DNA of 64,000 nucleotides. Origin: a virus. Positions 6,099 through 32,300 of the stretch are shown one piece after another. Position 1 is the first letter of the stretch; each line of letters starts with the position of its first letter. A program made the translations under genes and the position numbers. A model generated the notes under the pieces. It was not told the DNA's origin, did no database searches, and saw nothing but the letters and a program-made list of their open reading frames with translations. Location: the IMG/VR virus record IMGVR_UViG_3300025617_000006. One strand, 5' to 3'.

Positions 6099-8158
6099 AC
6101 GTTTTTCTGAAAACGTTGATCAGGTCTTGGATTTTTTGCTGGTGTACTACCTGCACTTGCCGCTTTCTTACTAGTCATTGTTTTTGTTACAGCCGCTTGT
6201 TGTGCTTGTTTAGTTCCACCCTGAATACCAGGAGAAGTTAATTGACCTTTTACAAGTTTGGCAATATTTGCTTTTTGAATTTGTTTTGCAAGTTCTTCTA
6301 GGTCTGGACGTCCTAGTCCTTGTGTATCAGCACTTACTGATTTACCAGTAGCCATATCAACCCAACTAGCACCTAACCAAATATGATCTTGGTTATTTGC
6401 CTGTCTAACCAAACCAATATTTCTGCCATCTCTAGTTGCTTCAATATCTCCGTCTGCGGCTGGATTTTTAGGATCAACTAATCCTGCATCTTTTTTAATC
6501 CACTTGGCAATTTCGTCTTTAGTAGCACGTCTTTCGCCACTTGCTGATGTTTGTGTAGCACTATCTCCGGAACCGTCTGCTGTAGCATCTGCATCTTTAC
6601 CACCGCTTGTTGACGCTTGTGTTGCGTCTGTAGCACCATCTGCATTTTTAGCATCGCCAAGATCGATTTCTTGTTCTTGTCCAATTGCTTTAATATCTTC
6701 TGGGGACATGCCTGCATCTTGTAAAATAAATGCAATAGTTCCTGCATCTGTTGGCTCGCCCATTTCTTTCCATTTTTTGTTTAATTTGTTTGCAGTTACT
6801 TTGTTACCTAGATCTTTACCAACTTGTTTAACGCCTGCGGCTACTTTGCTTGCGGCTTTGCCTAAACCACGTTTCATTTTGGCGCCTAGCGTATTAGGAT
6901 TATCTAATGGTAGTTCGCCTTGTTCTGGATCTGCTTCTGCAATAAACTCGTTAAGCATATATCTATATGCAGTTTCGTAGTCAACTGATTCTGTATTTTT
7001 TGTTCCGCTACCACCTTGAAGATCTAATTCACCTTGTACTGGTTCACCACCTACTTTAACATCTTTAGCATCAATCTTTCCTGATACTGTACCTTGTGCT
7101 AATGCTGATATACCGCTATTGATTGCTGTCATATTTTGTAAGAATGCATCATTCTCAGCCGCAATCGCTTGAGCAATATCATTTGCAATTTTATTACTAT
7201 CAAGCCACCATTGTGCGTCAAATGTATCTACAAAATCGCTCATCTCAGAAAACGCATCTAGAGCCGCAGAATTACTTGTTGCTCCGCTTGCTGTTGCTTC
7301 TTTCATCGTGTTAAGAAGATCTGTAAATCTACCTACTTCGCTTTCTGGAATGACCATACTGCCGATTGTTTCTTTCATTGTAAACCCTGGTCCTGAAAAT
7401 GTTTCAGTAAAGTTTACATCAAATTGTACAAGTCCTGGTGCTTTTTCATATGGTACAGCATCGTATCTTAATCCTTCAAACCAATCTCCAATGCCATTTA
7501 ATGCCCAGCCTGCAATAGCACCATAGGCCGCTGTCTTAATTGACTTACCAACTGCACTTGAAAGTTTTTCGCCTTGTAGTAACTCTTTAGTTGAACGTAG
7601 AATTAAACCTGCGGCCGCACCTCCTACAGGCCCGCCTGCGAAAGCCGCAATAGCAGTTAAAATACCAACTGCTAAACTTGCCTTGCCTGGGTTCTCTTTT
7701 GCCCAGTCACTAACTTTTTGAATACCTTGTACAATTTTGCTATCACCGTTTTTAGCAGTAATGTCTTTCTTTAACTGTTCAAACTTAGCATCTGCATTTT
7801 TAACAGGACCTGCGTTTTGTGCCATCTTACCAAGTTCGTTAATTTTAGCATCAACTTTCTTTGCCATATCAACTGGAAGTTTAGCCGCTGCCGCTACACC
7901 TGAACCTACTTTGCCTGCAATAGTTTTATTGTCGCCGCTGTCCATAGCACGTTGCTCAGCACCTTTAAAAATATCTTGAATTTGATCAGGTGTTAGTGTT
8001 GCTTCTGCTAGTCTAGTATATTCTTCCAGCAAGGGCCATAATTCTTTTTCCCAGCGATTAAGATAAATTTTTTGTGTTTCAGTTAGTGTTTGATAAGAAC
8101 TTTCAGTTAGGATCTGTGCTGTTCTGTTGTTTGGTTTGTTAAGTTCATATAAATTCAT
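6095..8158 (-). CDS. probable internal virion/ejection protein
   Basis: 687 aa; starts MNLYEL; several (L/I)-x-E sites; Gly/Ala hydrophobic hairpin LAVGILTAIAAFAGGPVGGAAAGLIL. Confidence 0.55.
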   Translation of the reverse strand: MNLYELNKPNNRTAQILTESSYQTLTETQKIYLNRWEKELWPLLEEYTRLAEATLTPDQIQDIFKGAEQRAMDSGDNKTIAGKVGSGVAAAAKLPVDMAKKVDAKINELGKMAQNAGPVKNADAKFEQLKKDITAKNGDSKIVQGIQKVSDWAKENPGKASLAVGILTAIAAFAGGPVGGAAAGLILRSTKELLQGEKLSSAVGKSIKTAAYGAIAGWALNGIGDWFEGLRYDAVPYEKAPGLVQFDVNFTETFSGPGFTMKETIGSMVIPESEVGRFTDLLNTMKEATASGATSNSAALDAFSEMSDFVDTFDAQWWLDSNKIANDIAQAIAAENDAFLQNMTAINSGISALAQGTVSGKIDAKDVKVGGEPVQGELDLQGGSGTKNTESVDYETAYRYMLNEFIAEADPEQGELPLDNPNTLGAKMKRGLGKAASKVAAGVKQVGKDLGNKVTANKLNKKWKEMGEPTDAGTIAFILQDAGMSPEDIKAIGQEQEIDLGDAKNADGATDATQASTSGGKDADATADGSGDSATQTSASGERRATKDEIAKWIKKDAGLVDPKNPAADGDIEATRDGRNIGLVRQANNQDHIWLGASWVDMATGKSVSADTQGLGRPDLEELAKQIQKANIAKLVKGQLTSPGIQGGTKQAQQAAVTKTMTSKKAASAGSTPAKNPRPDQRFQKNV

Positions 8159-8802
8159 TATATCATGCTCGCTAATCGTTTTTTATCTGCACTATTAAGT
8201 AAATCTAATTGTGCTTGAATATTTGCAGGAATCGACTCTGCAGGACCTGCCGCACTTCCGTTACCTGTTGGTGGTGCTTCACCTTTGTTATCACCAGATA
8301 CTGGAGCAATTGGTTGTCCAGTTTTATCATCTTTGCCATCTTTGTTTGCATCAACTTGCGGAGTTGCACTTGCATCTTTTGCACCAGCAGTTGCGTCTTT
8401 TGTACTATCGTCAGCAGTTGCCGTGCCAGCCGCACCTTTAATTTTTTTAGAAGCCTGTACAACTTTTAATAGAATTGAATCAAGCATTTTTTTATTAATA
8501 ACACCTGACGGTGGAATAAGTCCGCCGTCTGTTGGATACTTTTTGCTTTTTAACCAATTAGATAAATCTGCAGGATCAATTGCACTCATGCTTTGCCCGC
8601 TTTGACCAATGTAATTTTGATATTCACTGCGTAATTTGTTTGCTTCATCACCGGTATCTATTTCCCCGGCCATGCCCATAGCAGTGTCCTTAGCACCAAC
8701 TTTTGCTAATGCTTTAGCACCGAATTTCTTTAAACCCTGCTTAATTGCACCCACAGGTGCTTCATCTACACGGGATTCAGCAATTAGTTCATGAATTTTC
8801 AT
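8158..8802 (-). CDS. probable internal head protein
   Basis: 214 aa; starts MKIHELIAESRVDE; late promoter TAAATA at 8835-8830. Confidence 0.55.
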   Translation of the reverse strand: MKIHELIAESRVDEAPVGAIKQGLKKFGAKALAKVGAKDTAMGMAGEIDTGDEANKLRSEYQNYIGQSGQSMSAIDPADLSNWLKSKKYPTDGGLIPPSGVINKKMLDSILLKVVQASKKIKGAAGTATADDSTKDATAGAKDASATPQVDANKDGKDDKTGQPIAPVSGDNKGEAPPTGNGSAAGPAESIPANIQAQLDLLNSADKKRLASMI

Positions 8803-8865
8803 CGTAATATCCTATTCGTTATCTACATGTATTTATTTCTTTGTAACATAATTAAATATTCAACG

Positions 8866-9054
8866 ATGAGATATACATATACCATAACTGATTCAAATAA
8901 CAACATTGTTGAAGATAACCTAAACAGTTATCAAGATGCAACTGATTATTTGTTATTAATGCAAAGTCAAGGAATACCTGCAAATACGTTTTTTATTGTT
9001 AAGATTGAGCATTATACAGTTACAGGATTAGGAAGAGATCCAGATTTACACTAA
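8866..9054 (+). CDS. hypothetical protein (62 aa)
   Basis: In-frame ATG at 8866 of the tracked ORF 8791-9054, 7 nt after TAAATA (8853-8858). Confidence 0.55.
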   Translation: MRYTYTITDSNNNIVEDNLNSYQDATDYLLLMQSQGIPANTFFIVKIEHYTVTGLGRDPDLH

Positions 9055-9140
9055 TATTCCATATCAGTTTGATGATCCATGTGACGATATCACCAGTCTG
9101 TGTGACTATTGGGAACAATGGATTGGATAACACTATTATG

Positions 9141-9233
9141 ATTTGTTACTGCGTAACAAATTGTTTTCGCTATCGCTCAAACAGTATATCTTAAGATTAA
9201 TTAAGATGAATATTATTAATTGCGAAGCAATTT
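9141..9233. repeat. cluster of AT-rich inverted repeats with GNA-triloop hairpins
   Basis: ATTTGTTAC-TGC-GTAACAAAT (9141-9161), TCTTAA..TTAAGA (9189-9206) and AATTGC-GAA-GCAATT (9218-9232). Confidence 0.7.
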
Positions 9234-9234
9234 T

Positions 9235-9657
9235 AGCATCATGTAGATTGTTTCAGTCAGACGGAACCTGTTACGGTCCCATCTAATCTCAAAATTGTGC
9301 TTCATGTGAGTTCGCCACAGCCGAGACATTGGAAGTAGGTAATTGTTTATACACAAAGTACAATGGGCTCTGACCTTTCCCAACCTACGTCGACATCATT
9401 TACGCTACGCCGTATATTCTTAAAATATACGCTACACCGTAAACTACCTCTCGCTTCGTTCCTATTGCTAAAGAGTTTTTATGTACTGTGTTTGTGTTTT
9501 TCGACAGCCAACATGCTATCTCCGTCAACCTGTGAGCCCAATTTGTTTGATGGCTTCCTACCTCTGGGTAGTCGATCAACGTGTTACGTGTGTTCCGATC
9601 AAGGATACTTTTTCCACAGCGGTATTTCTAAACTGGCCCGCCAACCTTATGTGTTGG
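9235..9657 (-). ncRNA. putative large structured ncRNA (~420 nt, pseudoknotted), family unassigned
   Basis: Only long gap without a credible gene in the window. It contains many stems, G-U wobbles that work only on the minus strand, and crossing helices 9534-9540/9364-9370 and 9383-9388/9335-9340. Confidence 0.6.
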
Positions 9658-10096
9658 ATTGTTTTGCCTTGATGTGATGTTCTAGCAATGCCTGTCGTAA
9701 CTTGTCTGAGCCGCCAACTCTAACATTAATAATTCCGTTGTAATACTCGTCGCTCTCTAATACACGGCGGTCAAACTGTTCTCTTGCCTCTATGTAGGAC
9801 ATTTCGCCCCTACCTTTACATAGGTATAGTATTTCTCTTGTAAACTTGTCTTCGCCTAGTGCGGCAACATCTGCGTTTAGTCTATCACTGGAACCCCAGT
9901 AAGTTTTCCAATCGCTTTCTTTAGTGCCGCGTCTTTTGTTTTTCTTGCCTTTGAGTGGTGGCTTAGTTGTTTTAAACTTTGCTAGTTTTTTGCCTATGTA
10001 TTTTTGGCCTGTAGTGGTGTTGGTAATGAGATATACAAAACCTTCATACTCATCTGGTATTGTGTTTACTTTTTTGCCTTGATAAGTCCACTCCAT
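9647..10096 (-). CDS. minimal GIY-YIG endonuclease
   Basis: GFVYLITN...KYIGKK, YWGSS, catalytic Glu helix (SYIEAREQF) and YYN; 149 aa with no separate DNA-binding domain. Confidence 0.85.
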   Translation of the reverse strand: MEWTYQGKKVNTIPDEYEGFVYLITNTTTGQKYIGKKLAKFKTTKPPLKGKKNKRRGTKESDWKTYWGSSDRLNADVAALGEDKFTREILYLCKGRGEMSYIEAREQFDRRVLESDEYYNGIINVRVGGSDKLRQALLEHHIKAKQSNT

Positions 10097-10114
10097 GTGT
10101 GTACTTAACGTAGT

Positions 10115-10318
10115 CTATTTTTTATCTGCCTCTTTCCTGGCATCATACGTAGATCTAATTTCGCTCATGCGTATTTTAGCCAGTGATCTTATTTCTCTAA
10201 GCCATTTTCGGCTTGACTCCATTGTTCGCTTACCTTTGTAGGTTTCAAACTTTTCGTTCTCTTTAAAATACTCAAGATACGCTTTGGTCAATTTATCATG
10301 TGTATCGTCTTCTATCAT
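10115..10318 (-). CDS. hypothetical protein
   Basis: 67 aa basic helical ORF with an ATGA overlap with gp46. Confidence 0.65.
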   Translation of the reverse strand: MIEDDTHDKLTKAYLEYFKENEKFETYKGKRTMESSRKWLREIRSLAKIRMSEIRSTYDARKEADKK

Positions 10319-12087
10319 TCTACAATATCAACGTCATTTGCATAACTTGTAAAGCCGTTTTCTTTTACAACTTTAAGTACATTTTGCACACGCCCAACAA
10401 GTTCGTCTTTGTGTGAAATTAAATAAATGTTTTTCTTGCGCTCTCTGCCCATCTTTTTAAGGATAGCAAGACTACTTTCTACACCTGCTGTGTCCATACC
10501 ACTGTCAATCAGTTCGTCAATAAACAACAAGTTGATATTTTGATACAGACTTTCCCAAACATCACGGAATGCAAAACTTAATCCTAAGATAAGTCTGTTG
10601 CGTTCGCCTCTCGACAGATTATCAAAGTCTAAGTCTTGTCCTAGTTGTGTAATTTCAACATTCAAATCATTTTGGAACACAACTTGATGTGGCAACCCAA
10701 TCTTGTCAAGGTAATATGTAAGTCTGTTGTTTAGGTATGCAAGATTTTGATCAATAATTTTCTTACGAATAAAACTATCTTTGTTTGTAAGAAGTTTGTA
10801 CAAGAAGTCTTGGTGATCTTTAAGAGCAGTAAGATCGTTAATTGTATCCCATGATACTTCTTGTATTGCAGTATTTTCAAGATCGGTAATTTGATCAACA
10901 TACGGATCGTTTTCTGTTTCTTTTGACTTCAATGCTTGCTTTAAATTTTCAACATTTCCGCGATGCTCGTATGCTTCTTTTGCAGTTTCATAAAATGTAT
11001 TAGGCTTTGCATCTAAGTCGCCTAATTCTGCAAGTTTTTCTTGAACTCGTTTATGCTTAGTATCAACTTCTAACAAATACGTCATTGTTTCGCCGTACTC
11101 GCCTTGGAGTTGCTTTTCAATTTCGTGTTTCTTTTCTTCATGCAACTCTTGGCCACAACTATGACATTTAGCATCAACTAAATTTTCTAAGTCTTTAGTG
11201 TATTTTGTTATCTGCCGATCAGTTTGAATCAATGCACTATCAAGTGTAGCACGTTCTTTTTCTAAATTTCTTTTTTGCTGATTGTTTTCTGTCCACGTAG
11301 AAAGTTTTTCATGTGCATCAAGTTCTGCATCGATGTCTAAATGTTCAAGTTCATCAATGCCACCTTGTAAGCGGTCGCAATCTTTTGCGTTTTGTTGCTT
11401 CCATGCACTAGATTTAACTTTAAGACTATCAATTGTTTCAGAAATCTTTTCATTACTGTTTTGTACTGCACTAATACGTGCAGTTTCTTCGGTAATTGCG
11501 TCTCGAACTGCTTTTTGTTTAATTTTAAGTTCTTCGGCTTTTTCAGTAAGTATGGTAATACCTAATAACTGTTCAATAATTGCACGTTGATCGTTGGTGC
11601 GCATACTTAAAAAAGGTTCGCTATATGTATTAAGTGCAACAACATGTTTAAACATGTCATGACTCATGTGCAAAATACTAGCAATTTCGTCTTGTGTTCG
11701 ACGACTGTCGCCTTGTGACTCGTCTGACTCAGTTTGTTCGTTATTGTCAACATAAAACTTTAACAAGTTAGGAGAGCGTCCTCGCTCAATTCGATATTGT
11801 TTTCCGTCTTTTTCAAACTCAAGAGTTACTAACATGCCTTTTGAGTTAGTTTTATTAATTAGGTTGTTTAGTTTGATATTAGTCAGTGCTTGCCCATACA
11901 ATGCATAACTTAGTGCATTGGCAATAGTAGTTTTACCAGTACCGTTACGTGATCCACTGTCGTCTCCGCCTTGGTCTAGGTTTTCGCCTAATACAAGTGT
12001 TAGTTGCCTATTGCTAAAGTCAACACCCTGTGTCTGGTTGCCCACACTCATAAAGTTTTTTACAGTTAAATCTTTTAGTAATATCAT
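10315..12087 (-). CDS. gp46: recombination ATPase subunit (T4 gp46 / SbcC / Rad50)
   Basis: KNFMSVGN, Walker A NGTGKTT, zinc hook CHSCGQ, signature LSRGE, Walker B LFIDE, H-loop ISHK. Confidence 0.95.
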   Translation of the reverse strand: MILLKDLTVKNFMSVGNQTQGVDFSNRQLTLVLGENLDQGGDDSGSRNGTGKTTIANALSYALYGQALTNIKLNNLINKTNSKGMLVTLEFEKDGKQYRIERGRSPNLLKFYVDNNEQTESDESQGDSRRTQDEIASILHMSHDMFKHVVALNTYSEPFLSMRTNDQRAIIEQLLGITILTEKAEELKIKQKAVRDAITEETARISAVQNSNEKISETIDSLKVKSSAWKQQNAKDCDRLQGGIDELEHLDIDAELDAHEKLSTWTENNQQKRNLEKERATLDSALIQTDRQITKYTKDLENLVDAKCHSCGQELHEEKKHEIEKQLQGEYGETMTYLLEVDTKHKRVQEKLAELGDLDAKPNTFYETAKEAYEHRGNVENLKQALKSKETENDPYVDQITDLENTAIQEVSWDTINDLTALKDHQDFLYKLLTNKDSFIRKKIIDQNLAYLNNRLTYYLDKIGLPHQVVFQNDLNVEITQLGQDLDFDNLSRGERNRLILGLSFAFRDVWESLYQNINLLFIDELIDSGMDTAGVESSLAILKKMGRERKKNIYLISHKDELVGRVQNVLKVVKENGFTSYANDVDIVE

Positions 12088-12088
12088 T

Positions 12089-13093
12089 TTATAACTCGTT
12101 GTAAATGTTCAGCAGTTTTTGCTTGTTATAGTTTTCACTGTCAATAGCCTCAATTTCTTGTGCTACAATTTGATCGATACTTTCAAACTTTGTGATATCG
12201 ATATCTGTATTAATTTCGTCATCTTGAGTACTCGGAATTAATGTAATTTCACGACAGTTGTATGCTTTAATAAATTCCTCTTTAATAAAACTTGCTTCTT
12301 CGTAACTAATCGGAATATCAAGTGCTACTCTCAAATACATGTTTGGCTTGATCAATTTGTCTTTTTCATCAATAAGTCTTGATAGTTTAACTGTTCGATA
12401 CTTAGGACAATTAGGCCAGTTAATATACTCTGGCTCTCCGCCGTGTTCAAGAATCATCATTCCTCTAGCATCGTCCCACGCATCTGCGTAGTTGTGCGGA
12501 AATGCATTACCGATATATGTAATGTTACCTAGTGTTTGTCTTTTGTGAAAGTGTCCACTAAACACATACTCTTGTTTTTTAAAATGCTCTGCCTGGAGTT
12601 CACCAGTTTCAGGCATCTTTACCATTGCATTCATATAAAAATTAGGCAACTCAAAGTGACCAAAAATATATTTGCTTGTAAGTTTAGGAATCTTTTTCCA
12701 TTCATCGCCTACCAACCACGGAACAAGTGTACTATCTCCGATAGTAGTCATTTTGTTAATAACAGTTATACCGTCGATGTGATTTGCAAATTCTACAGAG
12801 TGGATATCGCGCTTGTCTTTGTAGTACAAATCGTGATTACCTGGAAAATAATAAAACTGATCAAACGCTTTTCCTAGTTTTTCTAGACTGCGGATAGAAT
12901 GATCCATTGTAATAATATTTAGACTGTTACGATTATGGTGCCAATCGCCCATAAAAATGCCTGTTTCGCATCCTTGCTCTTTGGCCTTAGCAATATACCA
13001 ATCAACAAAATCTTCACAATCTTCGTTGTGAAGGCGTGAGTTAGACTTTAGACCAAAATGTATGTCTGTAAATACAGCGGCTTTTTTAAACAA
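12089..13093 (-). CDS. gp47: recombination nuclease subunit (T4 gp47 / SbcD / Mre11)
   Basis: Metallophosphoesterase motifs TDIHFG, GDWHH, GNHD, GHFE and SGHFH; TTG start. Confidence 0.95.
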   Translation of the reverse strand: MFKKAAVFTDIHFGLKSNSRLHNEDCEDFVDWYIAKAKEQGCETGIFMGDWHHNRNSLNIITMDHSIRSLEKLGKAFDQFYYFPGNHDLYYKDKRDIHSVEFANHIDGITVINKMTTIGDSTLVPWLVGDEWKKIPKLTSKYIFGHFELPNFYMNAMVKMPETGELQAEHFKKQEYVFSGHFHKRQTLGNITYIGNAFPHNYADAWDDARGMMILEHGGEPEYINWPNCPKYRTVKLSRLIDEKDKLIKPNMYLRVALDIPISYEEASFIKEEFIKAYNCREITLIPSTQDDEINTDIDITKFESIDQIVAQEIEAIDSENYNKQKLLNIYNEL

Positions 13094-22900: not shown

Positions 22901-23376
22901 GCGATGAAGTAATTTACCATCCTGTTAAGTATAAAGTACTGTTTGGCAACAAAGCAGACAGTGATTTACAAGCAACATTTAAGATCGTTAAAAATCCAGA
23001 TGTAGTTACAAACGACAATGATATTAAATTACAGGTTATTACGGCTATCAACACTTTCTTTAGTTTAGAATTTTGGGACTTTGGTGATAAGTTTAGTTTT
23101 TCAGAACTATCAACATATATTATGAATACACTTGCACCCAATGTAAGCACAGTAGTACTAGTTCCAAATCAAACTGATAAAGCGTTTGGTAGTTTATATG
23201 AGATTACAACTGAAAGTGACGAGATATTTATTTCGGGGGCAACAGTTGACGATGTAGAAATTATTGATAGTTTAACTGCATCAAGGTTAAAGGCGGCAGG
23301 GTCAGTTGTAACAACAGCAACTACTCAAAACGCCGGAATACAGTCCAGCACAAGTAACGGAGGAAGTACTTACTAA
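19936..23376 (+). CDS. gp6: baseplate wedge subunit (gp6-like)
   Basis: DFDSLR, LIDLIAY, ENFLELAERRESVLRLARLLSYNPK, FSDGTFG..P and QNRMVTGEDY motifs. Confidence 0.85.
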   Translation: MSTTDRQNRLLLSEDWKRVYQTFRNADFKSYDFDSLRRTMIAYLRENYPEDFNDYIESSEYLALIDLIAYLGQNLAFRVDLNSRENFLELAERRESVLRLARLLSYNPKRNQASNGLLKFDSVSTSEDIVDANGVNLAGQTVSWNDPSNPDWAEQFRKILNSSLPQNGIIGRPVKKANIAGITTEQYRFNASNSNIPVYSFNKNVGEKNIVFEVTSSTIDESTIYEETPLPGNSLAFLYREDGKGAGSSNTGYFAHFRQGVLDNGNFSIDSPIENQTVAIDTENVNNSDVWLYKLDSNGNESQLWTKVDAVEGNNIIYNSLNKNERNVYAVLSRIGDRISLKFSDGTFGALPKGNFRVYYRKSLGSKFTVTPDSMTNISVSVPYISRSGTNEVLTVNMSLKYTVDNSSATETTRSIKQNAPATYYTQNRMVTGEDYNVAPLAISQEVVKVKSVNRTASGISRYFDLIDSTGKYSSTNIYGNDGAIYKELSDKKISFSFNTRTDVSGRIENVIQPLLTSQDIRNFYLGEFPKISTGDLSASWVQLSNQTNNSSGYLIDSLGVKYTVGTFTGSTLKYLEPNSIVKFVSPTGFYFDTKNDNKLVQGAATAQGAVTYIWTKVIRVNGDGTENYADNTGPIIFNDIIPTDAILNEVKPKFATNITPDVEAQLADQIFAYKTFGLRYSVIDREWRIIFNNNLNIGNDFNMGKTGDISNQNLDSSWLLLFETDGEKYTVTYRSVRYVFESDKEVKFYYDETDRIYDSRTGKVIRDKVNLLSINVAPDSPEALTVDFPWQITKEFRDSEGYVNSKKVELGFFDSDDDGVIDNPESFLQFVDPAENPENKLVFLKELISNNKSTNYDYCGSEGITVRASETAIGPLSSYDDQEIFYFLDSNVFKQYNATTASLTLLTNYKAYVGRDNLKFQYVHSADENNRLDPSSTNIIDSYLLTKTYDSSFRKYLAGDASTRPLPPSSDELFQNFGSEINKIKSISDEVIYHPVKYKVLFGNKADSDLQATFKIVKNPDVVTNDNDIKLQVITAINTFFSLEFWDFGDKFSFSELSTYIMNTLAPNVSTVVLVPNQTDKAFGSLYEITTESDEIFISGATVDDVEIIDSLTASRLKAAGSVVTTATTQNAGIQSSTSNGGSTY

Positions 23377-26300
23377 TGGCTTTTGAAAATGACCAGAATG
23401 AATTTCCAATTCAGCCCAATGGTGAAAATGGCAAACGTACTAGCGTACAACACTTACCTCGTTATTTTAGAACACCAGCAAATAAAAAGTTTTTATCTAG
23501 TACATTAGATCAACTAATCCAACCAGGCGAAGTTGAAAAAGTTAGTTCGTACTTTGGTAGAAATGATGCTAAGGCACGTACAGCAGACGATTCCTACATT
23601 AGTGATGTAAGTTCTGACAGACAAAACTATCAATTAGAACCTGCATTAGTTATTAAAGATGACTTTGATAATGTTTCCTTTTACAAAGATTATAATGATT
23701 ATATTAACCAGTTACGAGCATTTGGTAATACCAATCCTAATCACTCGTTGATTAATGCTCAAGAATATTATTCATGGAACCCGCACATTGATTGGGACAA
23801 GTTTGTAAATTTCCGTGAATATTATTGGCTTCCAGCAGGTCCGCAAGTTTTACCAATTTACGGCCAGACTAAGGAAGTATCTTCGACTTTTAAAGTATCA
23901 ATAGAGGAGAATGACGACAATGTAGCATATAAATTTACGCCAACAGGTTTAACACAAAATCCTACTTTAAAACTCTATAAAGGTCAAACATATATATTTG
24001 AAGTAGACACCCCAGGATATCCTATTGCATTTTCAACTAATAGGTCTTTTACTCCTGGTCAGGCTATTGTTACTGAAACAGTAGAAGGTGTTATTGCTCC
24101 AGGTCAGTTTGAAGCAGAACTATACGATTTCGATGGTTACGATACCGGTGAATACATAGTACAACCAGTTGAAGGCGGCATTGAAGGATTCACAGAAGGA
24201 GATAATATTTCAACACTTTATACTGATGGTGTTGAAGCATCAACTGTATGGGTTGAAAAAGGAACAATCAAATTTACTGTTCCGTTAGATGCCCCAAACA
24301 GACTTTTTTATATCAGTAAAGATGATGTTAATACAAGCGGATTGATTAACATTTACAATATTCTAGAAAATACAGAAATCAATGTAGAAGAAGAAATTTT
24401 ACAAAAGAAAACATACCAAACAAGAAATGATGTTGAGTTATCAAACGGTATGCTAGTAGAATTTTTAGGAGATGTAACTCCTGCAAAATATGCACAAGGA
24501 ACTTGGTATGTTGAAGGAGTTGGCGACTCGATTGAGTTAATTGCTAAATCCGATCTAGAAATTACTGGCACATACAGTGAAAGTAAATTTGTTCCGTTTG
24601 ATAGTGAAAATTTTGACAGAGTACCATTTGGACAAGCACTAAACTTTCCAAGAGACAAAGACTACATTACAATTAACAGATCAGCAATTGACGGTAACCC
24701 TTGGACACGCCATAACAGGTGGTTTCACAAAGACGTTATTGAAAAGGTTGCTAAGGCAAATGATTCACCAGTTAACCTTGATCAAACAGCAAGAGCGTCT
24801 AGGCCTATTATTGAGTTTGAAGGCGGACTTCGCCTTTACAACTTTGGATCTAAATTTAAATCAAACGTTGATCTAGTTGACGATAAAACTACTGATGTCT
24901 TTTCGAACATTGAAGGATCGGTAGGATACAATGTTGATGGAATAAATCTAACAGACGGGTTGCGTGTATTATTTACAGCAGATCCGGACGAGCGTGTGAA
25001 TGGAAGAATTTACAAAGTTAAATTCATTGACCATAACGGTTCTAGACAAATTGCATTACAAGACGAAGACGATACTAACCCAACGCTAAATGAAACTGTA
25101 TTAGTCAAAGCCGGCGAGGAAAACACTGGAAAAATTTATTGGTACAACGGTACTACATGGATAAAGGCGCAAGAAAAAGTTAGTGCAAATCAACCACCAT
25201 ACTTTAACTTGTACGATGCCGATGATGAGTCTTTTGATTCGTATCAGTCAACTTCGTTTACTGGTACTAAATTATTTTCTTATAAAGAAGGCACTGGCTC
25301 GGTTGATAGTGTCTTAGGATTTCCATTAACATATAGAAACATTCAAAATAGTGGAGATATTGTTTTTGATTTTAACCTACTAAATGATGTAATTACATAT
25401 CAAGAAGGTCAAGTATCATATACTAAAAAATCAGATACTGCTACATTAAGAAAGTATACAGACCTTGATACTTACGAAAACGAAAGCGGTTGGAAAAAAG
25501 CATTTCAAGAAAGTACACAAAAAGTTGTACGCCAGTATATTGTTTCAGGACAAAAAAATAATTTTGCAGTAGACGTATACAATCGAAGCGGAGACTTAAA
25601 TGAACTCAACGTTACTCTAACAGTAAATAACGAAAGAAGATCAGACTGGGAAATTAATAGAGAAAACGGTATAGCATATATTAGATTTGATAATGATCTA
25701 AACAATGACGATATTGTTGTAATGTTATGTACTAGCGAAGCGAATAAAAACGAAAACGGAAAATATGAATTTCCGATTAACTTACAAAACAATCCGTTAA
25801 ATGAAAATATTGTTGACTTTACTTATGGTGAAGTAAACGATCACGTAAACTCTATTATTGATAATCTTAACACATTTACAGGAAAGTTTCCAGGCTCTAG
25901 TAATTTAAGAGACTTAGGTTCTCTTACAGAATACGGAACTAAATTTGTTCAGCACAGTGGTGCAATTCCTTTAGCAATGTATCACATTACTAATAAAGAT
26001 TTCAACTTAATTAAATCAATGCGATATGCTAGAAAAGAATATGCAAAGTTTAAGCGATCGTTTGTTAGTATTTCTTCAGAACTAGGTATTGACGGAAGTC
26101 CAAGATATGTTGTAGATAAAATTATCGAAGAATGGCAACGTGATAAGTCTAAACAGAGTGCGTTTTATTGGACTGATATGATCGGCTCTGGTGCTAATAA
26201 AACTAGAGAGTTTACAATTGTTGATACAGGAAACAAGTTTTATAGTTTAACATCGCCGTTTAATTTAAGTGACATTTCTGCAAAAGCAGTTTATATCTAC

Positions 26301-29300
26301 TTAAATGATAGTCAGTTATTACACAATAAAGACTATGTGTTTACGGCTGAAGGATTTATACGTCTAGATGATGAGTTAGAATTAGCAGTTAACGACGCTA
26401 TCACAATTTACGAGTATGAATCAACTGATGCATCGTTTATTCCACCAACACCGAGTAAGTTGGGAATGTGGCCTTTATACCGTCCTACAAAATATGTAGA
26501 TTCTTCATATAGAAATCCTATGGAAGTTATTCAAGGACATGACGGTAGTATTATCCGAGCATACGGTGATTACCGTGATGACCTTATTTTAGAACTTGAA
26601 AACAGAATTTACAACAATGTTAAAATACAGTACGATAGTAATATTTTAGACGTAGACAGTTTTGTTGGTCATGCATCACGTGATACAGGATTTACTCCAG
26701 ATGTGATCGATGACGTAGTTATTACTGATTTCATTGAGTGGCTTGCAGTAGCAGGCGATCCAGATTATACTGACAATAGTTTTTATGATAGAACAGATTC
26801 GTTTACTTGGAACTATTCTAAGATGACAGATCCGTACAATAACCCGCTACAAGGATTTTGGCGTGCTATTTACAATAACTATTTAAGTACTGATACTCCG
26901 CACACTACACCGTGGAAAATTTTAGGATTTGTCGAAAAGCCAGATTGGTGGCAAGAAGTATATGGTCCAGCACCATACACTAAAGAAAACTTAATTTTGT
27001 GGGACGATTTAGAAAACGGGCGTGTCAGAGAACCAAACAAACCTATTAGATATCGTTCAAACTATATTCGTAAAGAATTAACAAAGTATATTCCGGTTGA
27101 CGCTCAAGGTAATTTAGTAAGTCCATATGAAAGCGGATATGCTAGAGGACTAATTGCTCCTAGTACAAATGAACAGTTTATATTTGGAGATCAAGCGCCG
27201 GTTGAATCGGCGTGGCGTAAAAGTTCCGAATATCCTTTTGCTTTACTTACTGCGTGGTTGATTAACCAACCAACAAAGGTAATGTCTACAGGATTTGATA
27301 GAGCAAGACTTGTGCGTAATACTGCTGGACAAATTGTTTATAGCGCAACCGACAAACGATTAACCCCTAAAGATGTTGTATTTCCTAACACTTCGGAGAA
27401 TGCAGAACGAGTTACGACTGCTGGACTTATTAACTATATGTTCAATTATATCAATGCAGATGTAACAAAACTAAATGAAGAATACAGTGAGCAAGTTTTA
27501 AACATTAATGTACAACTTGGATTTAAAATGGGAGGATTTAGTACTCCTGACAAATTTAAATTGTTACTTGATTCAAGAACCCCAAGCAATGAAGGCAATG
27601 TATTCATTCCTGAAGAAAATTATAAAATATTCTTTAATGTGAGTACACCAGTTGACACGGTATCATACAGTGGAGTTATTATTGAGAAAAGTGAAAGCGG
27701 TTGGATTGTTAAAGGATATGACAGAAGCAGACCATATTTTGTGTACAATAAACCTCTTGAACGTGCAAGTGACCCTGTTGTAAATATTGGTGGAGTAAGT
27801 GAAAACTTCTTAGAGTTTGTAAACGGATCACAGTATCGAGTTGGACAAATTATTCGAAACGGAGACTTGTTTTATAGAGTAAAGGTAACACACACTGCGG
27901 TAGGATTCCAAACTGAAAACTTTACTAAGTTAGCACAACTACCAATTGATGGCGGCGTTGAAGGAACTATTAGACGATCGTTTGAACAAGGCACATCTAA
28001 ACTAAGATACGGTACATTACTGCGTTCAAATCAAGACGTGATTGATTTCTTATTAGGTTACGGAACTTACTTAGAATCGCAAGGCTTTGATTTTAATAAC
28101 TTTAATAAAGAAATTGAGTCTATTGAAAACTGGGAATTGAGTGCGAGGGAGTTCTTGTTCTGGACTACTCAAAATTGGAGTCCGGGAACATTGCTTACAC
28201 TATCTCCTAGTGCCAGTGCATTAATGTTTGCTAGAGATAATGCAGTTGTAGATAACATTTTTGATAACTTTTATGATTATACATTATTAAAAGCAGACGG
28301 CGCAAAACTAAAAGAAGAATTTGCAAACACAATTAGATCAAATCAAAACGAATTTGGATTGCGTTTAAAAAATACTCAAGATGGAATTTACTTCTTAAAA
28401 ATTCCTCTAGTGCAAAAAGAACATGTAGTATTGATTGACAACAAGACAGTATTCAACGATGTAATTTATAATCCGGCACCGGGTTATCGTCAGGCTCGAA
28501 TTAAAGGTATTGGATATCGCACAACAAATTGGAACGGCGGATTTGATATTCCTGGGTTTACATATGATAATGTTAAGGTTACTAATTGGGAACCAAACAC
28601 TGATTATGCAATTAGTGATGTTGTACAATACAAAACGTTTTTCTACAGTGCAAAAAGTAAAGTTGTAGGAACAACAGAGTTTAATGACTCTGACTGGTAC
28701 CGACTACCTGAAAGACCTAAGGCTGAACTTACACCAAACTTTGATTACAAAGCAAATCAGTTTTCAGACTTTTATGATTTAGATAGTGACAACTTTGATA
28801 CTGAACAGCAACGTTTGGCTCAGCACTTAATTGGTTATCAAAAGCGTAACTACTTAGAAAATATTATTACTGATAGCGTGTCTCAGTATAAATTCTATCA
28901 AGGATTTATTCAAGATAAAGGCACACGAAATAGTTTAACTAAACTTTTTGATGCACTTTCAAATACAGAAAATTCAAGTTTAGAGTTTTTTGAAGAGTGG
29001 GCATTTAAAGTTGGTCAGTATGGAGCCAGCGGTGGCTTTGACGAAGTTGAATATCTTTTAGACGAATCGAAAATACGACTCCAGCCTCAGCCATTCCAGT
29101 TAGTACGAAACATTAATCCTTTGTCAACAGACTTAGTTTATAGATATGCATTAAATGATGTATATTCAAAACCAAGCGATTACAACCATGCTCCGTTCCC
29201 TACTAAAGATTTAACAGAAACTTATATTAGAACAGCAGGGTATGTTGCAGAAGAAGATATTGATTACAAGTTTACTAACTATGACGACTTGTTAGATTTT

Positions 29301-32300
29301 GATGTTAATTTAGTATCAGTAGGGCAGTATATTTGGGTTGCAAAGAGAGATCAATCATGGGATGTTCTTAGACAAACCGAAACTATCTTAAAAGTTAAAA
29401 GTATTTTAAACAGTAGCACAGGCGAAGTAGAAATTACATTTAATAAAGTTCCAGAGTTTAATAAAGATGATATTATTGGAGTATTAGGCACAACTCCTGA
29501 AACTAACAAATTTTATAAAGTAAATAGAATCAGTCTTAACATTGCTTATGTAACAGCAAGCGGCGAAGTCCCTGATGTACCAGATACAAACGGGTTCCTT
29601 GTTAAATTAGAATCAGTAAGAGTTGCAACACTAAGTGATGTTAATCCTAAAATTACTAGAGACAATTACACAGCCGGCGAAAAGATTTGGGTAGACAGTG
29701 ACGAAACTAATAACTGGACTGTTCTTGAAAACAACAACACTTATACTTTAGGAAAGAAAAGTTACAATGCAACACTCGAAGGCGCTGGCACAATTGTCAA
29801 CGGAGAGCGTGTATACGACATTAGAAATTTTGGCTCGAGTCTTTCAGCAAACGACTTAAACACTGTATTAGTTGTTGGTGCACCATCTCCTACGTCCGAA
29901 AAGCGTGGTAGAATTGATATACACTTTAGAGCGGCTGAAAACTTAAATCTTATTCAAGGCCAGGTTATTGATTGCCCTGATGGATTGTTTGATGGTGATA
30001 ATAGTTTTGGAGAATCAACAGCACTTAGTTCAGATGGCAGATTCCTGTTTGTTGGTGCACCGTATGCATCTAATGTTAAAACAAATTACAGGGGTATATT
30101 TGACCCAGCAAACACATACCAAGAAAATGAAATTGTACAATACACAAATCAATTTTGGAAAGCAAAAACAGTTGTATTCCCGAGTGATGATAGTTTAGCC
30201 TATCCTAGTTTTTCATCGCATATTCAAGAACTTATTAAAACATATGAAAACACCGTTTATGATAACTTATGGTTAGTTCTACGAGGTAACTTTACATTCC
30301 AAGAAGAATCAACCGACCACGTATTAATTAAAGCCCAGTCAGTGCAATATGCAGGTACTGAAGCCGGCGACAAACTGCAACTGTTATGGAATACTAAAAA
30401 CACTAGATATCCATCGGGTGTAAATCCGTTTAATGACACTCCTGAATTAAGTAGCGATTTCTTTAATGGCGAGCATGTAATTCAAGAAAAGATTGACGAT
30501 ATCTTATTAGTAGATAATACACAAGCAATTCCAGATGTAGGGGAAGTTATTAATAGTGATATTGCGTTAGGCGTGGTTGCATATACATATACAACAGGCG
30601 ATAACCGAACGTTGATTTATGTTAAAGATGCTAATGGTAACTTTGCAGACGAAGGAACACTAGAGTTAGGCGATATTACAATCGGGTTGTACGAACGTGC
30701 AGTTCAACAACCGAGCGACGACTTTGAAGGTTGGTGGAAAATTGGTGTTGGTTCAACTTTTAATTCAACAGCAACAATAGAAACAAAGCCATATCTAGTT
30801 GTACAGGATATTATTAAACAGTCGGTATCAAGAACTGTAAACTATTTTGAAAACATTCTTAATATTGTAGATGACACTTCACCAGGAGTTCCGTCATATA
30901 TTGAAACATTGACAGCAAACGGTGATTCAGGATTTGAAATATCTGACAAGTGGGTATTTAGACTTCCGATTACACTTGAATCTGACGTTAGTATTGGCGA
31001 CACATTTAACTTTTGGTTTAATGAATACCGAACACCTGAAGGTATATTACAGTCACCGACAGTGATTGCTCCTGAATTAACACATGAGTATCTTAACACA
31101 ACATTACACACTGTTCAAGACAAATGGAATGGTTGGATTAATGTTAACTTAACAAACTTTGATAACAGTGGTTCTCCTACAATAGGCGATGCTGATTATA
31201 ATCCTAACTACGGTAATCCTTATATACCGGTAGTTGGTGATATTATACAAGACAATGATACTGGCGCTACAGCAGAAGTAACATATGTTGAAAAATTATT
31301 TAATGATTTACGACTTTGGATTAAAAATGTAAACATAACTGAAGGTCCTTGGAAATTAGGATCTGAATTTAGAAATATTTCAAGTATAAGCATTGTTGAA
31401 GGATCACAAGGCGAGGGTGTTATCAGACTTGTCGGAACTACTAAAAGTGTTTTCCTTGACGGTGAGACAATTGGGTCAATTATCGTTGTAGATCGCGGTG
31501 AAAACTTAACACCAGGAAGCACTAGAACACTACAGAATTTTGAATATTGGGTTTACAAAACCCAAGTATTGCAGGGAATTGCGCGAGATGCAAACCCACC
31601 AAGTTCAGTAAATAACGACTGGCAAAGAATTTATAATATTCCAGTTGAAAATAGTGGAACACAAAGTGGATATAATCGCCAAGGTGCCTATGCAGTATAT
31701 GAAAGAAATACAAGTAACTTCTACGAACTAGTTAATTTTTATACTATGCCTGACAGTAATAACTTTAGGCACCTGGGAGCGTCGATTGATTTAATCAAAC
31801 GCCCAGATGGCGGGTATTCTGCATATATTTCAAGTAAGGGTAATGGTACATTTGAACAACCAGGAAGAATTAACATTATTAATTACTCCGAAGATAACGG
31901 TTGGGTACTTGGCGCCGATACTGATTATAGAGGAGAGTTTGTTGAAACAGTTGCATATTACGAAGGCGAGTTTGTTAAGTATGCTGGTCAAATATATTCA
32001 GCGGCAACAAACATTTTACCAGGATCGTTTAATAGTAATGACTGGACAGCAATTAATACCGGAGTTGATTTAAACGGGTTTATTCCTAACAATACAGGAT
32101 TTATGGTTGGAACTGACAGTTCTTTAGAAGTTTCAAATCTTATTGAGTTTGGATCACAATACGATGTTAGTAAGAACGGTCATGTGTTAGCATCGATTGT
32201 TAAATACGGCGACCAACTTGATAGTGCATTACGTATTCCAAAACTTGCAATTTACAGACTTGTAAATGGTCAGTTTATGTGGGATCAAATTATTGAAGGC

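What the first reader, a model, noticed from the sequence alone, without database searches (positions are those of the whole stretch)
9235..10096. Minimal GIY-YIG nuclease fused to a ~420-nt pseudoknotted ncRNA: candidate RNA-protein system
Seen: this is the only long non-coding gap in a tightly packed genome, and it begins at the nuclease stop codon, which sits in the loop of hairpin CCAAC/GUUGG (9641-9657). On the minus strand it folds into many helices: CUACC/GGUAG (9558-9571); UUUACG..CGUAUAUU/AAUAUACG..CGUAAA (9399-9443); and UUAGAUGGGACC/GGUUCCGUCUGA (~9257-9286), whose G-U wobbles work only on that strand. Two helices cross in A-B-A'-B' order to form a pseudoknot: UGGGCUC (9540-9534) with GAGCCCA (9370-9364), and GUAGGU (9388-9383) with ACCUAC (9340-9335), with an AUUGU/ACAAU stem between A' and B'. 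An imperfect direct repeat (CACAUGAAGC / UACAUGAUGC) flanks the last hairpin. Known: GIY-YIG homing enzymes usually carry extra DNA-binding domains and often sit in group I introns. This one is catalytic-domain only, with a Lys/Arg-rich insert (KFKTTKPPLKGKKNKRRG), and the RNA interrupts no gene. Inference: nuclease and RNA are co-transcribed from the late promoter at 10107-10102 and may form an RNP (RNA-scaffolded or guided nuclease), or the RNA is a new ribozyme or large ornate RNA.
Basis: partly seen in the sequence, partly recalled or inferred. Interest (0 to 1): 0.88.

Follow-up and report, generated by a model that had tools for sequence, protein, structure and literature searches.

The report
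Twin-box folded RNA beside phage nuclease
The gene-free stretch behind a small DNA-cutting enzyme gene of this uncultured marine T4-like giant phage encodes a real, knotted RNA of about 425 bases that matches no RNA catalogue. It carries one short word twice, and the two copies mutate in step. It also occurs without the enzyme, so it is probably not the enzyme's guide, and its job is still unknown.

Summary
Window 9231-9657 (minus strand) is a conserved, structured, non-coding RNA directly behind a 149-aa SegE-type GIY-YIG gene (9647-10096).

- **Structure:** across 70 distinct copies from IMG/VR contigs, 65 proposed pairs are 97.2% paired. 32 pairs show compensatory changes, more than any of 500 shuffles.
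four survive, three do not. The RNA is pseudoknotted, but through other helices: the 5' leader pairs with the loop of hairpin H6, and H7 crosses H10.
- **Catalogue and expression:** Rfam 15 has no match. Contigs from four RNA libraries (three studies) cover the nuclease gene plus the RNA but hardly the flanks.
- **Twin boxes:** two 7-nt boxes flank the 3' hairpin and are identical in 93 of 95 distinct copies, in eight sequence versions.
- **Linkage:** 167 of 169 testable copies follow SegE, but a divergent lineage has the RNA without it. SegE-type genes also sit at other loci without any RNA in 849 deposited phage genomes.

I read it as an independent phage RNA co-transcribed with a long-resident endonuclease gene, not a guide RNA. 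This scan has already followed up the same RNA family on at least six other genomes, with the same conclusion.

The parts
10102..10107 (-). TAAGTA late-promoter-like motif, 5 nt upstream of the SegE ATG. This would give a leaderless or nearly leaderless transcript.
   Evidence: TAA[AG]TA sits 5 nt before the ATG at several other genes of the window. It is conserved as GGTAAGTA-N5-ATG in most relatives. RNA-library contigs stop near 10065-10100. It is a motif match only; no start site was mapped.
9647..10096 (-). 149-aa SegE-type GIY-YIG nuclease gene. Its stop codon lies inside the RNA's invariant ACAUAAGG.
   Evidence: Pfam PF19835, E 1.2e-35. 193 of 193 copies are intact. dN/dS is 0.105. Synonymous sites are frozen in the last ~40 nt.
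9231..9657 (-). Twin-box structured non-coding RNA, class A, about 425 nt
   Evidence: blastn conservation ends sharply at 9231-9239. Alignment A1 holds 70 distinct copies. There is no Rfam match.
9652..9657 (-). PK1, 5' strand (CCAACA); it pairs with the H6 loop at 9508-9513
   Evidence: 70 of 70 standard pairs at all six positions, in five sequence versions. RNAalifold also finds it de novo.
9503..9520 (-). Hairpin H6 (GAUAG/CUGUC); its loop UGUUGG (9508-9513) is the 3' strand of PK1
   Evidence: 3 of 5 pairs have changes on both sides.
9587..9643 (-). H2 (9638-9641 with 9619-9622) and the bipartite H3 (outer GUG/CAC plus a highly variable inner hairpin)
   Evidence: At least ten different inner-stem sequences are visible.
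9522..9582 (-). Long helix H4 (9576-9582 with 9522-9528). It encloses H5 (9558-9571) and a segment that is replaced by a short hairpin in many copies.
   Evidence: UA/CG, AU/GC and UA/CG switches in 22-25 sequences each.
9482..9486 (-). H7, 5' strand (GUACA); it pairs with 9358-9362, and H7 crosses H10 to form a pseudoknot
   Evidence: 70 of 70 paired; three positions covary, in four versions.
9448..9475 (-). H8 (CUCUU/GAGAG) with the conserved loop motif AGGAACGA
   Evidence: 4 of 5 pairs have changes on both sides.
9399..9443 (-). H9, a variable-length peripheral stem. In many copies it shrinks to GC-GNRA-GC; in L002 it exceeds 150 nt.
   Evidence: Alignment. A metatranscriptome contig variant replaces the 44 nt between 9397 and 9442 with 9 nt.
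9335..9388 (-). Invariant core: H10 (GUAGGU 9383-9388 with ACCUAC 9335-9340), H11 (UGGG/CCCA 9364-9382) and the 3' strand of H7
   Evidence: H10 has one compensated change, in the L150 lineage. The stretch GGGAAAGGUCAGAGCCCAUUG is almost entirely invariant.
9300..9307 (-). Box 1 (ACAUGAAG)
9257..9286 (-). H12, the 3' hairpin. Its invariant 3' strand UCUGAC could alternatively pair with the H11 loop GGUCAGA (9369-9375).
   Evidence: The alternative pairing is invariant, so covariation cannot test it.
9237..9250 (-). CAAUCU + box 2 (ACAUGAUG, 9237-9244). CAAUCUAC (9243-9250), which overlaps the first two bases of box 2, can pair with GUAGGUUG (9381-9388) as an alternative to H10.
   Evidence: 8 pairs hold in 64-70 of 70 copies. 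The same long-range helix, with a matched 3-nt insertion, is present in class B RNAs (read by eye).
9218..9232 (-). Terminal UUCG-loop hairpin (AAUUGC-UUC-GCAAUU); its sequence varies but the hairpin is kept
9141..9180 (.). Conserved UUGAGCGAUAGCGAAAAC plus a hairpin with compensatory changes, at the point where transcription converges; probably a terminator
   Evidence: present behind both class A and class B RNAs.
8791..9054 (+). Convergent 87-aa ORF, a real gene (C-terminal GRDPDLH is conserved)
   Evidence: and the reverse-strand reading of L093 and L096.

Best explanation
Window 9231-9657 (minus strand) encodes an autonomous, compactly folded non-coding RNA of an uncatalogued family (twin-box RNA). 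The family is common in uncultured marine T4-like giant phages.

In this lineage the RNA is transcribed as the 3' extension of a SegE-type GIY-YIG gene, probably from a late-type promoter just upstream of that gene. The gene has lived at this spot for a long time and now reads into the RNA's first conserved motif.

The RNA does not need the nuclease. Its pseudoknotted body (PK1, and H7 crossing H10) presents two identical single-stranded 7-8-nt boxes on either side of a hairpin. Almost any box position may change, provided both boxes change alike. No complement lies in the RNA or nearby. I therefore infer that the boxes work by base pairing with one outside nucleic-acid sequence, either two copies of it or the same one twice. 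A switch between two mutually exclusive partners of GUAGGU (H10, or the stretch that leads into and overlaps box 2) may gate this.

Shown: the RNA, its helices, the twin-box rule, and occurrence without SegE. Inferred: co-transcription, pairing in trans, and the switch.
For: - **Conservation:** conservation of the non-coding stretch ends sharply at 9231-9239, in about 60 of the first 118 loci fetched.
- **Structure:** 65 pairs are 97.2% paired. 32 have changes on both sides, against 19.5 +/- 1.6 in shuffles (0 of 500 shuffles reach the observed value). The covariation score is 0.273, against at most 0.069 when the partners are slid.
- **PK1:** 70 of 70 paired at six pairs, in five versions. 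RNAalifold finds it independently.
- **No known family:** no Rfam hit at gathering score, only noise at E up to 10. No tRNA or tmRNA.
- **Not coding:** the longest sense ORF is as short as 17 aa in some copies, and the box spacing of 51-67 nt falls in all three frames.
- **Expression:** contigs from four RNA libraries of three studies cover 9300-10065 at depths of 15-110, against 0-4 on the flanks. One exact contig spans 9631-9745.
- **Twin boxes:** the 7-mers are identical in 93 of 95 distinct copies. Of 23 copies with a non-majority box, 21 changed both boxes alike. Mutual information for box 1 columns is highest with the same column of box 2.
- **RNA without SegE:** L144, L150 and L235-L237 have different upstream genes and their own TTGACA/TATAAT and TATAAATA motifs.
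- **SegE without the RNA:** Melnitz and three other cultured-phage loci inspected; 849 phage records hold a SegE-type gene.
- **Alternative partners of GUAGGU:** both are conserved.
Against: - No pairing partner for the boxes was found in the RNA, within several kb, or in the 64-kb window. Pairing in trans is therefore an inference by exclusion.
- SegE and the RNA are adjacent in 167 of 169 testable copies. A second RNA type (class B) sits behind more distant SegE homologues.
- All 193 SegE copies are intact and under strong purifying selection. The gene and the RNA overlap. A functional tie in this lineage is therefore not excluded.
- Only assembled contigs of RNA libraries were available. 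They show neither strand, ends nor level of an RNA, and DNA carry-over cannot be ruled out.
- In this very window the two boxes differ at position 7 (ACAUGAA against ACAUGAU).
Confidence: 0.5

Rival explanations
1. Nuclease-RNA partnership: the RNA binds SegE and scaffolds, guides or regulates it.
For: - The two are adjacent in 167 of 169 testable copies, and also for the class B RNA behind SegE homologues whose DNA is only 66-70% identical.
- The SegE stop codon lies in the RNA's invariant motif, and synonymous sites are frozen in the last 40 nt of the gene.
- SegE lacks any DNA-binding domain, yet it is intact in 193 of 193 copies with dN/dS 0.105.
- RNA libraries cover both together.
Against: - The RNA occurs without SegE in L144, L150 and L235-L237.
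- SegE-type genes of the same size lie at other loci with no RNA behind them, at all four cultured-phage loci inspected; 849 phage records hold such a gene.
- To my knowledge no GIY-YIG enzyme uses RNA.
- The adjacency is also what plain synteny among relatives would give.
Confidence: 0.1
2. Self-processing RNA: the large body is a ribozyme, or a substrate for a host RNase, that cuts at the same place in both boxes. This would release or circularise the 51-67-nt hairpin unit between them.
For: - Identical junction words on both sides of a unit are what such excision or ligation would need.
- The core is invariant and pseudoknotted.
- RNA-library contigs thin out downstream of about 9300, but this is a gap in contig cover and therefore very weak evidence.
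Against: - No internal guide complementary to the boxes was found.
- No joint across the boxes appears in the RNA contigs.
- No match to any known ribozyme family.
Confidence: 0.1
3. RNA-only architecture of the GOLLD/ROOL kind: a phage-borne ornate RNA that assembles into a multimeric particle, with the boxes and loops as contact points.
For: - The RNA is large, has many helices and pseudoknots, and is phage-borne, with variable peripheral stems capped by GNRA loops.
- GOLLD, ROOL and OLE form homo-oligomers (PMC12286853, abstract as listed).
Against: - There is no sequence or model similarity to those families.
- Most box versions are not self-complementary beyond 4 nt, so they cannot explain self-association.
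- At about 425 nt it is smaller than ROOL or GOLLD (sizes from my own knowledge).
Confidence: 0.12
4. Cis-acting 3' untranslated region that stabilises or tunes the SegE messenger and has no role of its own.
For: - Co-transcription is likely.
- T4-type messengers often end in stable UUCG hairpins (established knowledge). One follows box 2.
Against: - About 425 nt with at least 12 conserved helices, invariant single-stranded blocks and co-varying boxes is far more than stabilisation needs.
- The same RNA follows unrelated small ORFs elsewhere.
Confidence: 0.08
5. A DNA-level element, such as a replication origin or recombination site with short direct repeats, rather than an RNA.
For: - Identity of two short direct repeats regardless of their sequence is also the rule for crossover cores in site-specific recombination (established knowledge).
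- The element lies at a point where transcription converges.
Against: - Many conserved G.U pairs would be C.A mismatches on the other strand.
- The compensatory changes keep RNA helices intact, including long-range ones.
- A spacing of 51-67 bp is too short for most recombinases.
- No deletion alleles were seen.
Confidence: 0.03

Closest known systems
GOLLD and ROOL RNAs (large ornate non-coding RNAs, often carried by phages)
   Same: Large, with many helices and pseudoknots; phage-borne; conserved far beyond neutral expectation; biochemical role unknown; peripheral stems of variable length.
   Different: No covariance-model match. Smaller, at about 425 nt. It carries two co-varying identical boxes, a feature I have not seen described for those RNAs. 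It lies behind a nuclease gene rather than near tRNA genes.
Free-standing Seg-type GIY-YIG homing endonuclease genes of T4-like phages (for example SegB, lodged among the T4 tRNA and stable-RNA genes)
   Same: A small GIY-YIG gene sits between conserved genes of a T4-like phage, next to a highly conserved RNA gene. Homologues occupy different loci in different phages.
   Different: It has only the catalytic domain and no DNA-binding tail. It is fixed and intact in all 193 copies seen at this locus, rather than sporadic. Homing or cleavage was not tested.
OMEGA systems (IscB or TnpB with omega RNA; the HEARO RNA) and CRISPR effectors
   Same: A nuclease gene is directly flanked by a large structured RNA that is transcribed with it.
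   Different: The nuclease fold differs (GIY-YIG, not RuvC/HNH). The RNA and the nuclease each occur without the other. There is no HEARO match. No single variable guide abuts a scaffold; instead there are two short identical boxes.
Group I introns carrying GIY-YIG genes (for example T4 td with I-TevI)
   Same: GIY-YIG gene plus a pseudoknotted RNA of similar size, with one long-range helix crossing another.
   Different: No gene is interrupted: only 18 nt separate SegE from the upstream ORF, and a convergent gene lies downstream. There is no Rfam intron match at E up to 10. There are no recognisable splice-site pairings.

Membership tests
SegE-type GIY-YIG nucleases (Pfam PF19835) | Sequence match to the GIY-YIG catalytic domain profile above the curated cut-off | tested here: met
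   122.9 bits against a cut-off of 25, E 1.2e-35, profile positions 1-123 of 123. GxxY, YIG, and the Glu (FTREIL) and Asn (YYNGIIN) positions are visible by eye.
Free-standing homing endonuclease genes (Seg family) | C-terminal DNA-binding domain behind the catalytic domain | tested here: not met
   Only 26 residues follow the domain. Copies are 140-152 aa.
Free-standing homing endonuclease genes (Seg family) | Patchy presence or absence among close relatives, and different insertion sites | tested here: inconclusive
   Present and intact in every syntenic relative (193 of 193). Homologues lie at other loci in Melnitz, S-SRM01, phiM12 and P-TIM68.
Free-standing homing endonuclease genes (Seg family) | Site-specific DNA cleavage and gene conversion | not testable with these tools
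   Needs enzyme assays or mixed infections.
Any Rfam 15 family (GOLLD, ROOL, HEARO, group I/II introns, RNase P, tmRNA and others) | Covariance-model score at or above the family's gathering score | tested here: not met
   No hit in the whole window. In 8700-10300 only five chance-level matches, at E 1.2-3.1 and far below cut-off. ARAGORN finds nothing.
RNA-guided nuclease systems (OMEGA or CRISPR kind) | Obligate co-occurrence of nuclease and RNA | tested here: not met
   The RNA occurs without SegE in L144, L150 and L235-L237. SegE-type genes occur without the RNA.
RNA-guided nuclease systems (OMEGA or CRISPR kind) | A variable guide segment next to a conserved scaffold | tested here: inconclusive
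   The only freely variable single-stranded words are the two 7-8-nt boxes. They vary together, and no target was found.
Group I intron | Interrupts a gene; exons join into one reading frame | tested here: not met
   Upstream ORFs end 18 nt before SegE. Downstream lie a terminator and a convergent gene.
Large ornate phage-borne RNAs (as a kind, not a homologous family) | Several hundred nucleotides, many covarying helices and pseudoknots, no coding capacity | tested here: met
   About 425 nt and 12 helices, with 32 pairs changed on both sides and two crossing helix pairs. No conserved ORF.
Large ornate phage-borne RNAs (as a kind, not a homologous family) | Self-assembly into homo-oligomers | not testable with these tools
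   Needs native gels or cryo-EM.

The most novel reading that the evidence does not exclude
The twin-box RNA is a new kind of phage riboregulator. Its knotted body holds two identical short reading heads, possibly gated by a two-state switch of the GUAGGU strand. The heads base-pair with a phage or host nucleic acid that differs from lineage to lineage. This would be programmable recognition by a large RNA without a dedicated protein. Alternatively, in this lineage, the SegE enzyme may exploit that recognition.
Probability: 0.25. Interest if true: 0.85.

Novelty: new variant of a known kind. Interest (0 to 1): 0.68.

Why it matters
- Large structured RNAs with unknown jobs are rare, and each one found so far (RNase P, group I and II introns, OLE, GOLLD, ROOL) has taught new RNA biology.
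- It appears in metatranscriptomes.
- Its rule that two boxes must stay identical while their sequence is free points to recognition by base pairing. That gives a concrete handle for experiments.
- It also corrects a tempting misreading: a nuclease gene next to a big RNA is not by itself evidence for an RNA-guided nuclease.

Tried and rejected
- **Rfam:** searched at gathering score and at E up to 10; nothing.
- **tRNA, tmRNA, RNase P:** ARAGORN found nothing. I considered tmRNA-like (GUCGAAAAAC) and RNase P-like (GGAAAGGUC, ACAGAAC, CAUAAGG) word resemblances and dropped them. The order of the elements does not fit, the frames are inconsistent, and no model matches.
- **Single-sequence folding:** z -1.46 on the minus strand and -0.25 on the plus strand, so not informative.
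- **Coding or ribosome-hopping reading of the boxes:** rejected, because the box spacing falls in all three frames and no ORF is conserved.
- **Anti-box search:** none found inside the RNA, in the 3' tail, within several kb, or in the 64-kb window. A partial UUCAU or AUCAU just behind the terminal hairpin is too short and AU-rich to count.
- **Pairing between the boxes:** the CAUG palindrome gives only 4 bp and is lost in several versions.
- **SegE start region:** it does not co-vary with the boxes.
- **Other collections:** the 20-mer core in 185,579 species genomes gave two chance matches inside a coding gene of Acidobacteria MAGs. blastn of class A and class B RNAs against 50,697 deposited phage genomes gave no match. 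No whole genome is held for this window.
- **Structure-aware alignment:** MAFFT Q-INS-i is not installed.
- **Contig ends and gaps:** RNA-library contigs end at 9367 and at 9660-9664, which coincides with strain variation, so these are not read as RNA ends. The thin cover of 9231-9300 is not evidence of a 3' end.
- **PDB:** a sequence search with SegE gave nothing significant.
Full report
**What is at the coordinates**

On the minus strand the gene order is:
- an Mre11-like gene (12089-13093; weak Metallophos match);
- a Rad50/gp46-like gene (10315-12087);
- a 67-aa ORF;
- a 149-aa ORF at 9647-10096.

Then comes an ORF-free stretch, followed by the next minus-strand gene at 8158-8802. A convergent plus-strand ORF (8791-9054) is real, because its C-terminus GRDPDLH recurs in distant relatives.

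The 149-aa protein matches Pfam SegE_GIY-YIG over the whole profile (E 1.2e-35), so the Lys/Arg-rich stretch belongs to the family and is not an insert. The gap is the largest ORF-free stretch of the window. The portal protein is 47-48% identical to those of jumbo T4-like phages such as PA5oct and Atu_ph07. The window therefore comes from an uncultured T4-like giant phage.

**Is the RNA real?**

Folding the single sequence says little: z is -1.46 on the minus strand and -0.25 on the plus strand. The comparative evidence is strong.
- IMG/VR holds more than 598 relatives of the nuclease gene. In about 60 of the first 118 loci fetched, the non-coding stretch is conserved down to a sharp boundary at 9231-9239.
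- I aligned 70 distinct copies (A1) and counted a 12-helix structure on them. 97.2% of cells are paired.
- 32 of 65 pairs change on both sides, against 19.5 +/- 1.6 in shuffles, and none of 500 shuffles reaches the observed value. The covariation score is 0.273, against at most 0.069 when partners are slid by 1-3 columns.
- Many conserved G.U pairs fix the strand as minus.
- No ORF is conserved on either strand.

RNAalifold, run blind on A1, recovers PK1, H2, H3, H4 and H12.

**Anatomy (window coordinates, 5' to 3' on the minus strand)**

| Element | Coordinates | Support |
|---|---|---|
| PK1 | leader CCAACA 9657-9652 with the loop of hairpin H6, 9513-9508 | 70 of 70 paired at six pairs, five versions: CCAACA/UGUUGG, CUAACA/UGUUAG, ACAGCA/UGCUGU, ACAGAA/UUCUGU, GCAACA/UGUUGC |
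| H2, H3 | 9643-9587 | H3 inner stem takes at least ten different sequences |
| H4 | 9582-9576 with 9528-9522 | encloses H5 and a segment that many copies replace with a short hairpin |
| H6 | 9520-9503 | |
| H7 | 9486-9482 with 9362-9358 | four versions |
| H8 | 9475-9448 | loop carries the invariant GGAACGA |
| H9 | 9443-9399 | from a GC-GNRA-GC stub to more than 150 nt |
| Invariant core | 9388-9335 | H10 (GUAGGU/ACCUAC) and H11 (UGGG/CCCA) |
| Box 1 | 9307-9300 | |
| H12 | 9286-9257 | |
| Box 2 | 9244-9237 | |
| Terminal hairpin | 9232-9218 | UUCG loop |

H7 crosses H10, and PK1 crosses H6, so the RNA is doubly pseudoknotted.

Two further pairings among invariant segments cannot be settled by covariation:
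- the H11 loop GGUCAGA with UCUGACU at the foot of H12;
- GUAGGUUG (9388-9381) with CAAUCUAC (9250-9243), which overlaps the first two bases of box 2.

The second pairing competes with H10. A compensated change in the L150 lineage supports H10. The class B RNAs carry the long-range version with a matched three-base insertion (GUAGGGAGUUG / CAACUAUCUAC, read by eye). Both pairings may therefore form at different times.

Four hold: H5, H9, H10 and H12, as does the direct repeat. Three fail.
- The stop-codon hairpin has 30 of 70 C.A mismatches at one pair, and its strand belongs to PK1.
- In UGGGCUC/GAGCCCA, the first strand is missing in 29 of 70 copies.
- AUUGU/ACAAU overlaps H7.

**Twin boxes**

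The two words on either side of H12 are identical 7-mers in 93 of 95 distinct copies.
- Eight versions occur as matched pairs: ACAUGAA, ACAUAAU, ACAUGAU, ACGUGAA, ACAUAAA, ACAUGAG, GUAUGAA and ACAGAAA. The divergent copy L144, which the count left out, carries AUCAUCAAGU at both places.
- Of 23 copies with a non-majority box, 21 changed both boxes alike.
- One of the two exceptions looks like a mis-anchored match in the script. The other is this window (ACAUGAA against ACAUGAU).
- Every position except the sixth can vary.
- Box 1 columns share most information with the same columns of box 2, and with none in the RNA body.

The spacing of 51-67 nt falls in all three frames, so this is not coding or ribosome hopping. 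I found no complement in the RNA, its tail, the flanks or the window. The SegE start region does not follow the boxes.

Identity without a fixed sequence is what one expects if both boxes pair with one partner. That partner is not nearby.

**Linkage to the nuclease**

Evidence for a tie:
- 167 of 169 testable RNA copies have SegE just upstream.
- The SegE stop codon is the UAA inside the RNA's invariant ACAUAAGG.
- Synonymous sites are frozen over the last ~40 nt of the gene.
- All 193 SegE copies are intact, with dN/dS 0.105 at dS about 0.9.
- More distant relatives with the same gene order carry a different RNA (class B) at the same place, with the same box module.

Evidence against an obligate pair:
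- L144, L150 and L235-L237 have a recognisable class A RNA behind unrelated small ORFs, with their own promoter-like motifs and no SegE.
- The Melnitz homologue (70.6% aa over 91% of the protein) lies next to the ribonucleotide reductase genes with no gap.
- SegE-type genes of about 140 aa occur in 849 deposited phage genomes. In the three further records I inspected they lie next to other genes (endolysin, NrdB) with little or no downstream gap.

I conclude that the adjacency is old synteny plus gene overlap, not proof of partnership.

**Expression**

Only assembled contigs of public runs were available.
- Four RNA libraries from three studies hold contigs over 9300-10065 at summed depths of 15-110, against 0-4 over 10100-10500 and 8700-9300.
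- One exact contig spans the gene-RNA junction (9631-9745).
- Cover starts where a TAAGTA motif (10107-10102) lies 5 nt before the ATG. Several other genes of the window have TAAATA at exactly this distance, and relatives keep GGTAAGTA there.

Contigs cannot show strand or ends.

**What it is like**

No Rfam 15 family matches, and no deposited phage genome holds either RNA class. The 20-nt core occurs in species genomes only as two chance coding matches.
- In kind, it resembles the large ornate phage-borne RNAs GOLLD and ROOL, which form RNA-only assemblies (PMC12286853).
- In genomic setting, it recalls Seg endonuclease genes lodged beside stable-RNA genes in T4.
- It fails the tests for OMEGA-type systems and for group I introns.

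**Earlier work of this scan**

The same family was followed up on at least six other genomes, with the same outcome. Here I reproduced the RNA, the twin-box rule and the occurrence without SegE. New here:
- the PK1 pairing, which replaces the stop-codon hairpin;
- the two competing partners of GUAGGU, shared with class B;
- the selection figures for SegE;
- the leaderless-promoter context;
- the metatranscriptome cover.

**Verdict**

This is a real, new, widespread structured RNA. The guide-RNA reading is unlikely (about 0.1). My preferred mechanism is pairing of the twin boxes with an outside sequence, possibly gated by a structural switch, but it is inferred, not shown.

Noticed in passing
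window 871 (-), 19432 (+), 45522 (+), 53387 (+), 10096 (-): Several genes have TAAATA or TAAGTA exactly 5 nt before the ATG and no Shine-Dalgarno sequence. Others have TAAATA 21-24 nt upstream followed by AGGA/GAGG. This suggests that part of the late genes of this phage are expressed as leaderless messengers.
   Followed up: partly
window 9141-9180: UUGAGCGAUAGCGAAAAC plus a hairpin with compensatory changes is conserved behind both RNA classes, at the point where transcription converges. The 18-nt word is too well kept for a plain terminator.
   Followed up: no
window ~9499 (loci L035, L044, L046, L056, L065, L069 and others): Many IMG/VR contigs end within a few bases of window position 9499. 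That is where two sequence versions of the H7 5' strand begin. This is most likely an assembly break at strain variation, not a genome end.
   Followed up: partly
window 9660-9700: Synonymous sites of the last ~40 nt of SegE (UAGAACA, AGGCAAA) are invariant across 91 distinct copies. AAGGCAAA also precedes the RNA in class B, in another reading frame. An RNA or promoter element may therefore extend into the gene.
   Followed up: partly
L093, L096-L100, L106, L108, L109, L112: A second RNA of about 380 nt (class B), unalignable with class A, lies at the same position behind SegE homologues. It has the same box module (CUCACAUGAUG ... hairpin ... AUCUACAUGAUG) and a terminal hairpin.
   Followed up: partly
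L085:2970-3232: In one relative an extra ~85-codon reading frame ending in CNDCGGKFVAWLPKGF lies between SegE and the RNA. It may be a remnant or a gain of a zinc-finger-like DNA-binding module.
   Followed up: no
phage records: Many deposited T4-like phage genomes label this small GIY-YIG gene 'NAD synthetase'. This appears to be an inherited annotation error.
   Followed up: no
window 8791-8802: The start of the plus-strand 87-aa ORF and the start of the minus-strand 214-aa ORF overlap by 12 nt, head to head.
   Followed up: no
window 23376-38273: A single 4965-aa ORF lies among the fibre genes.
   Followed up: no
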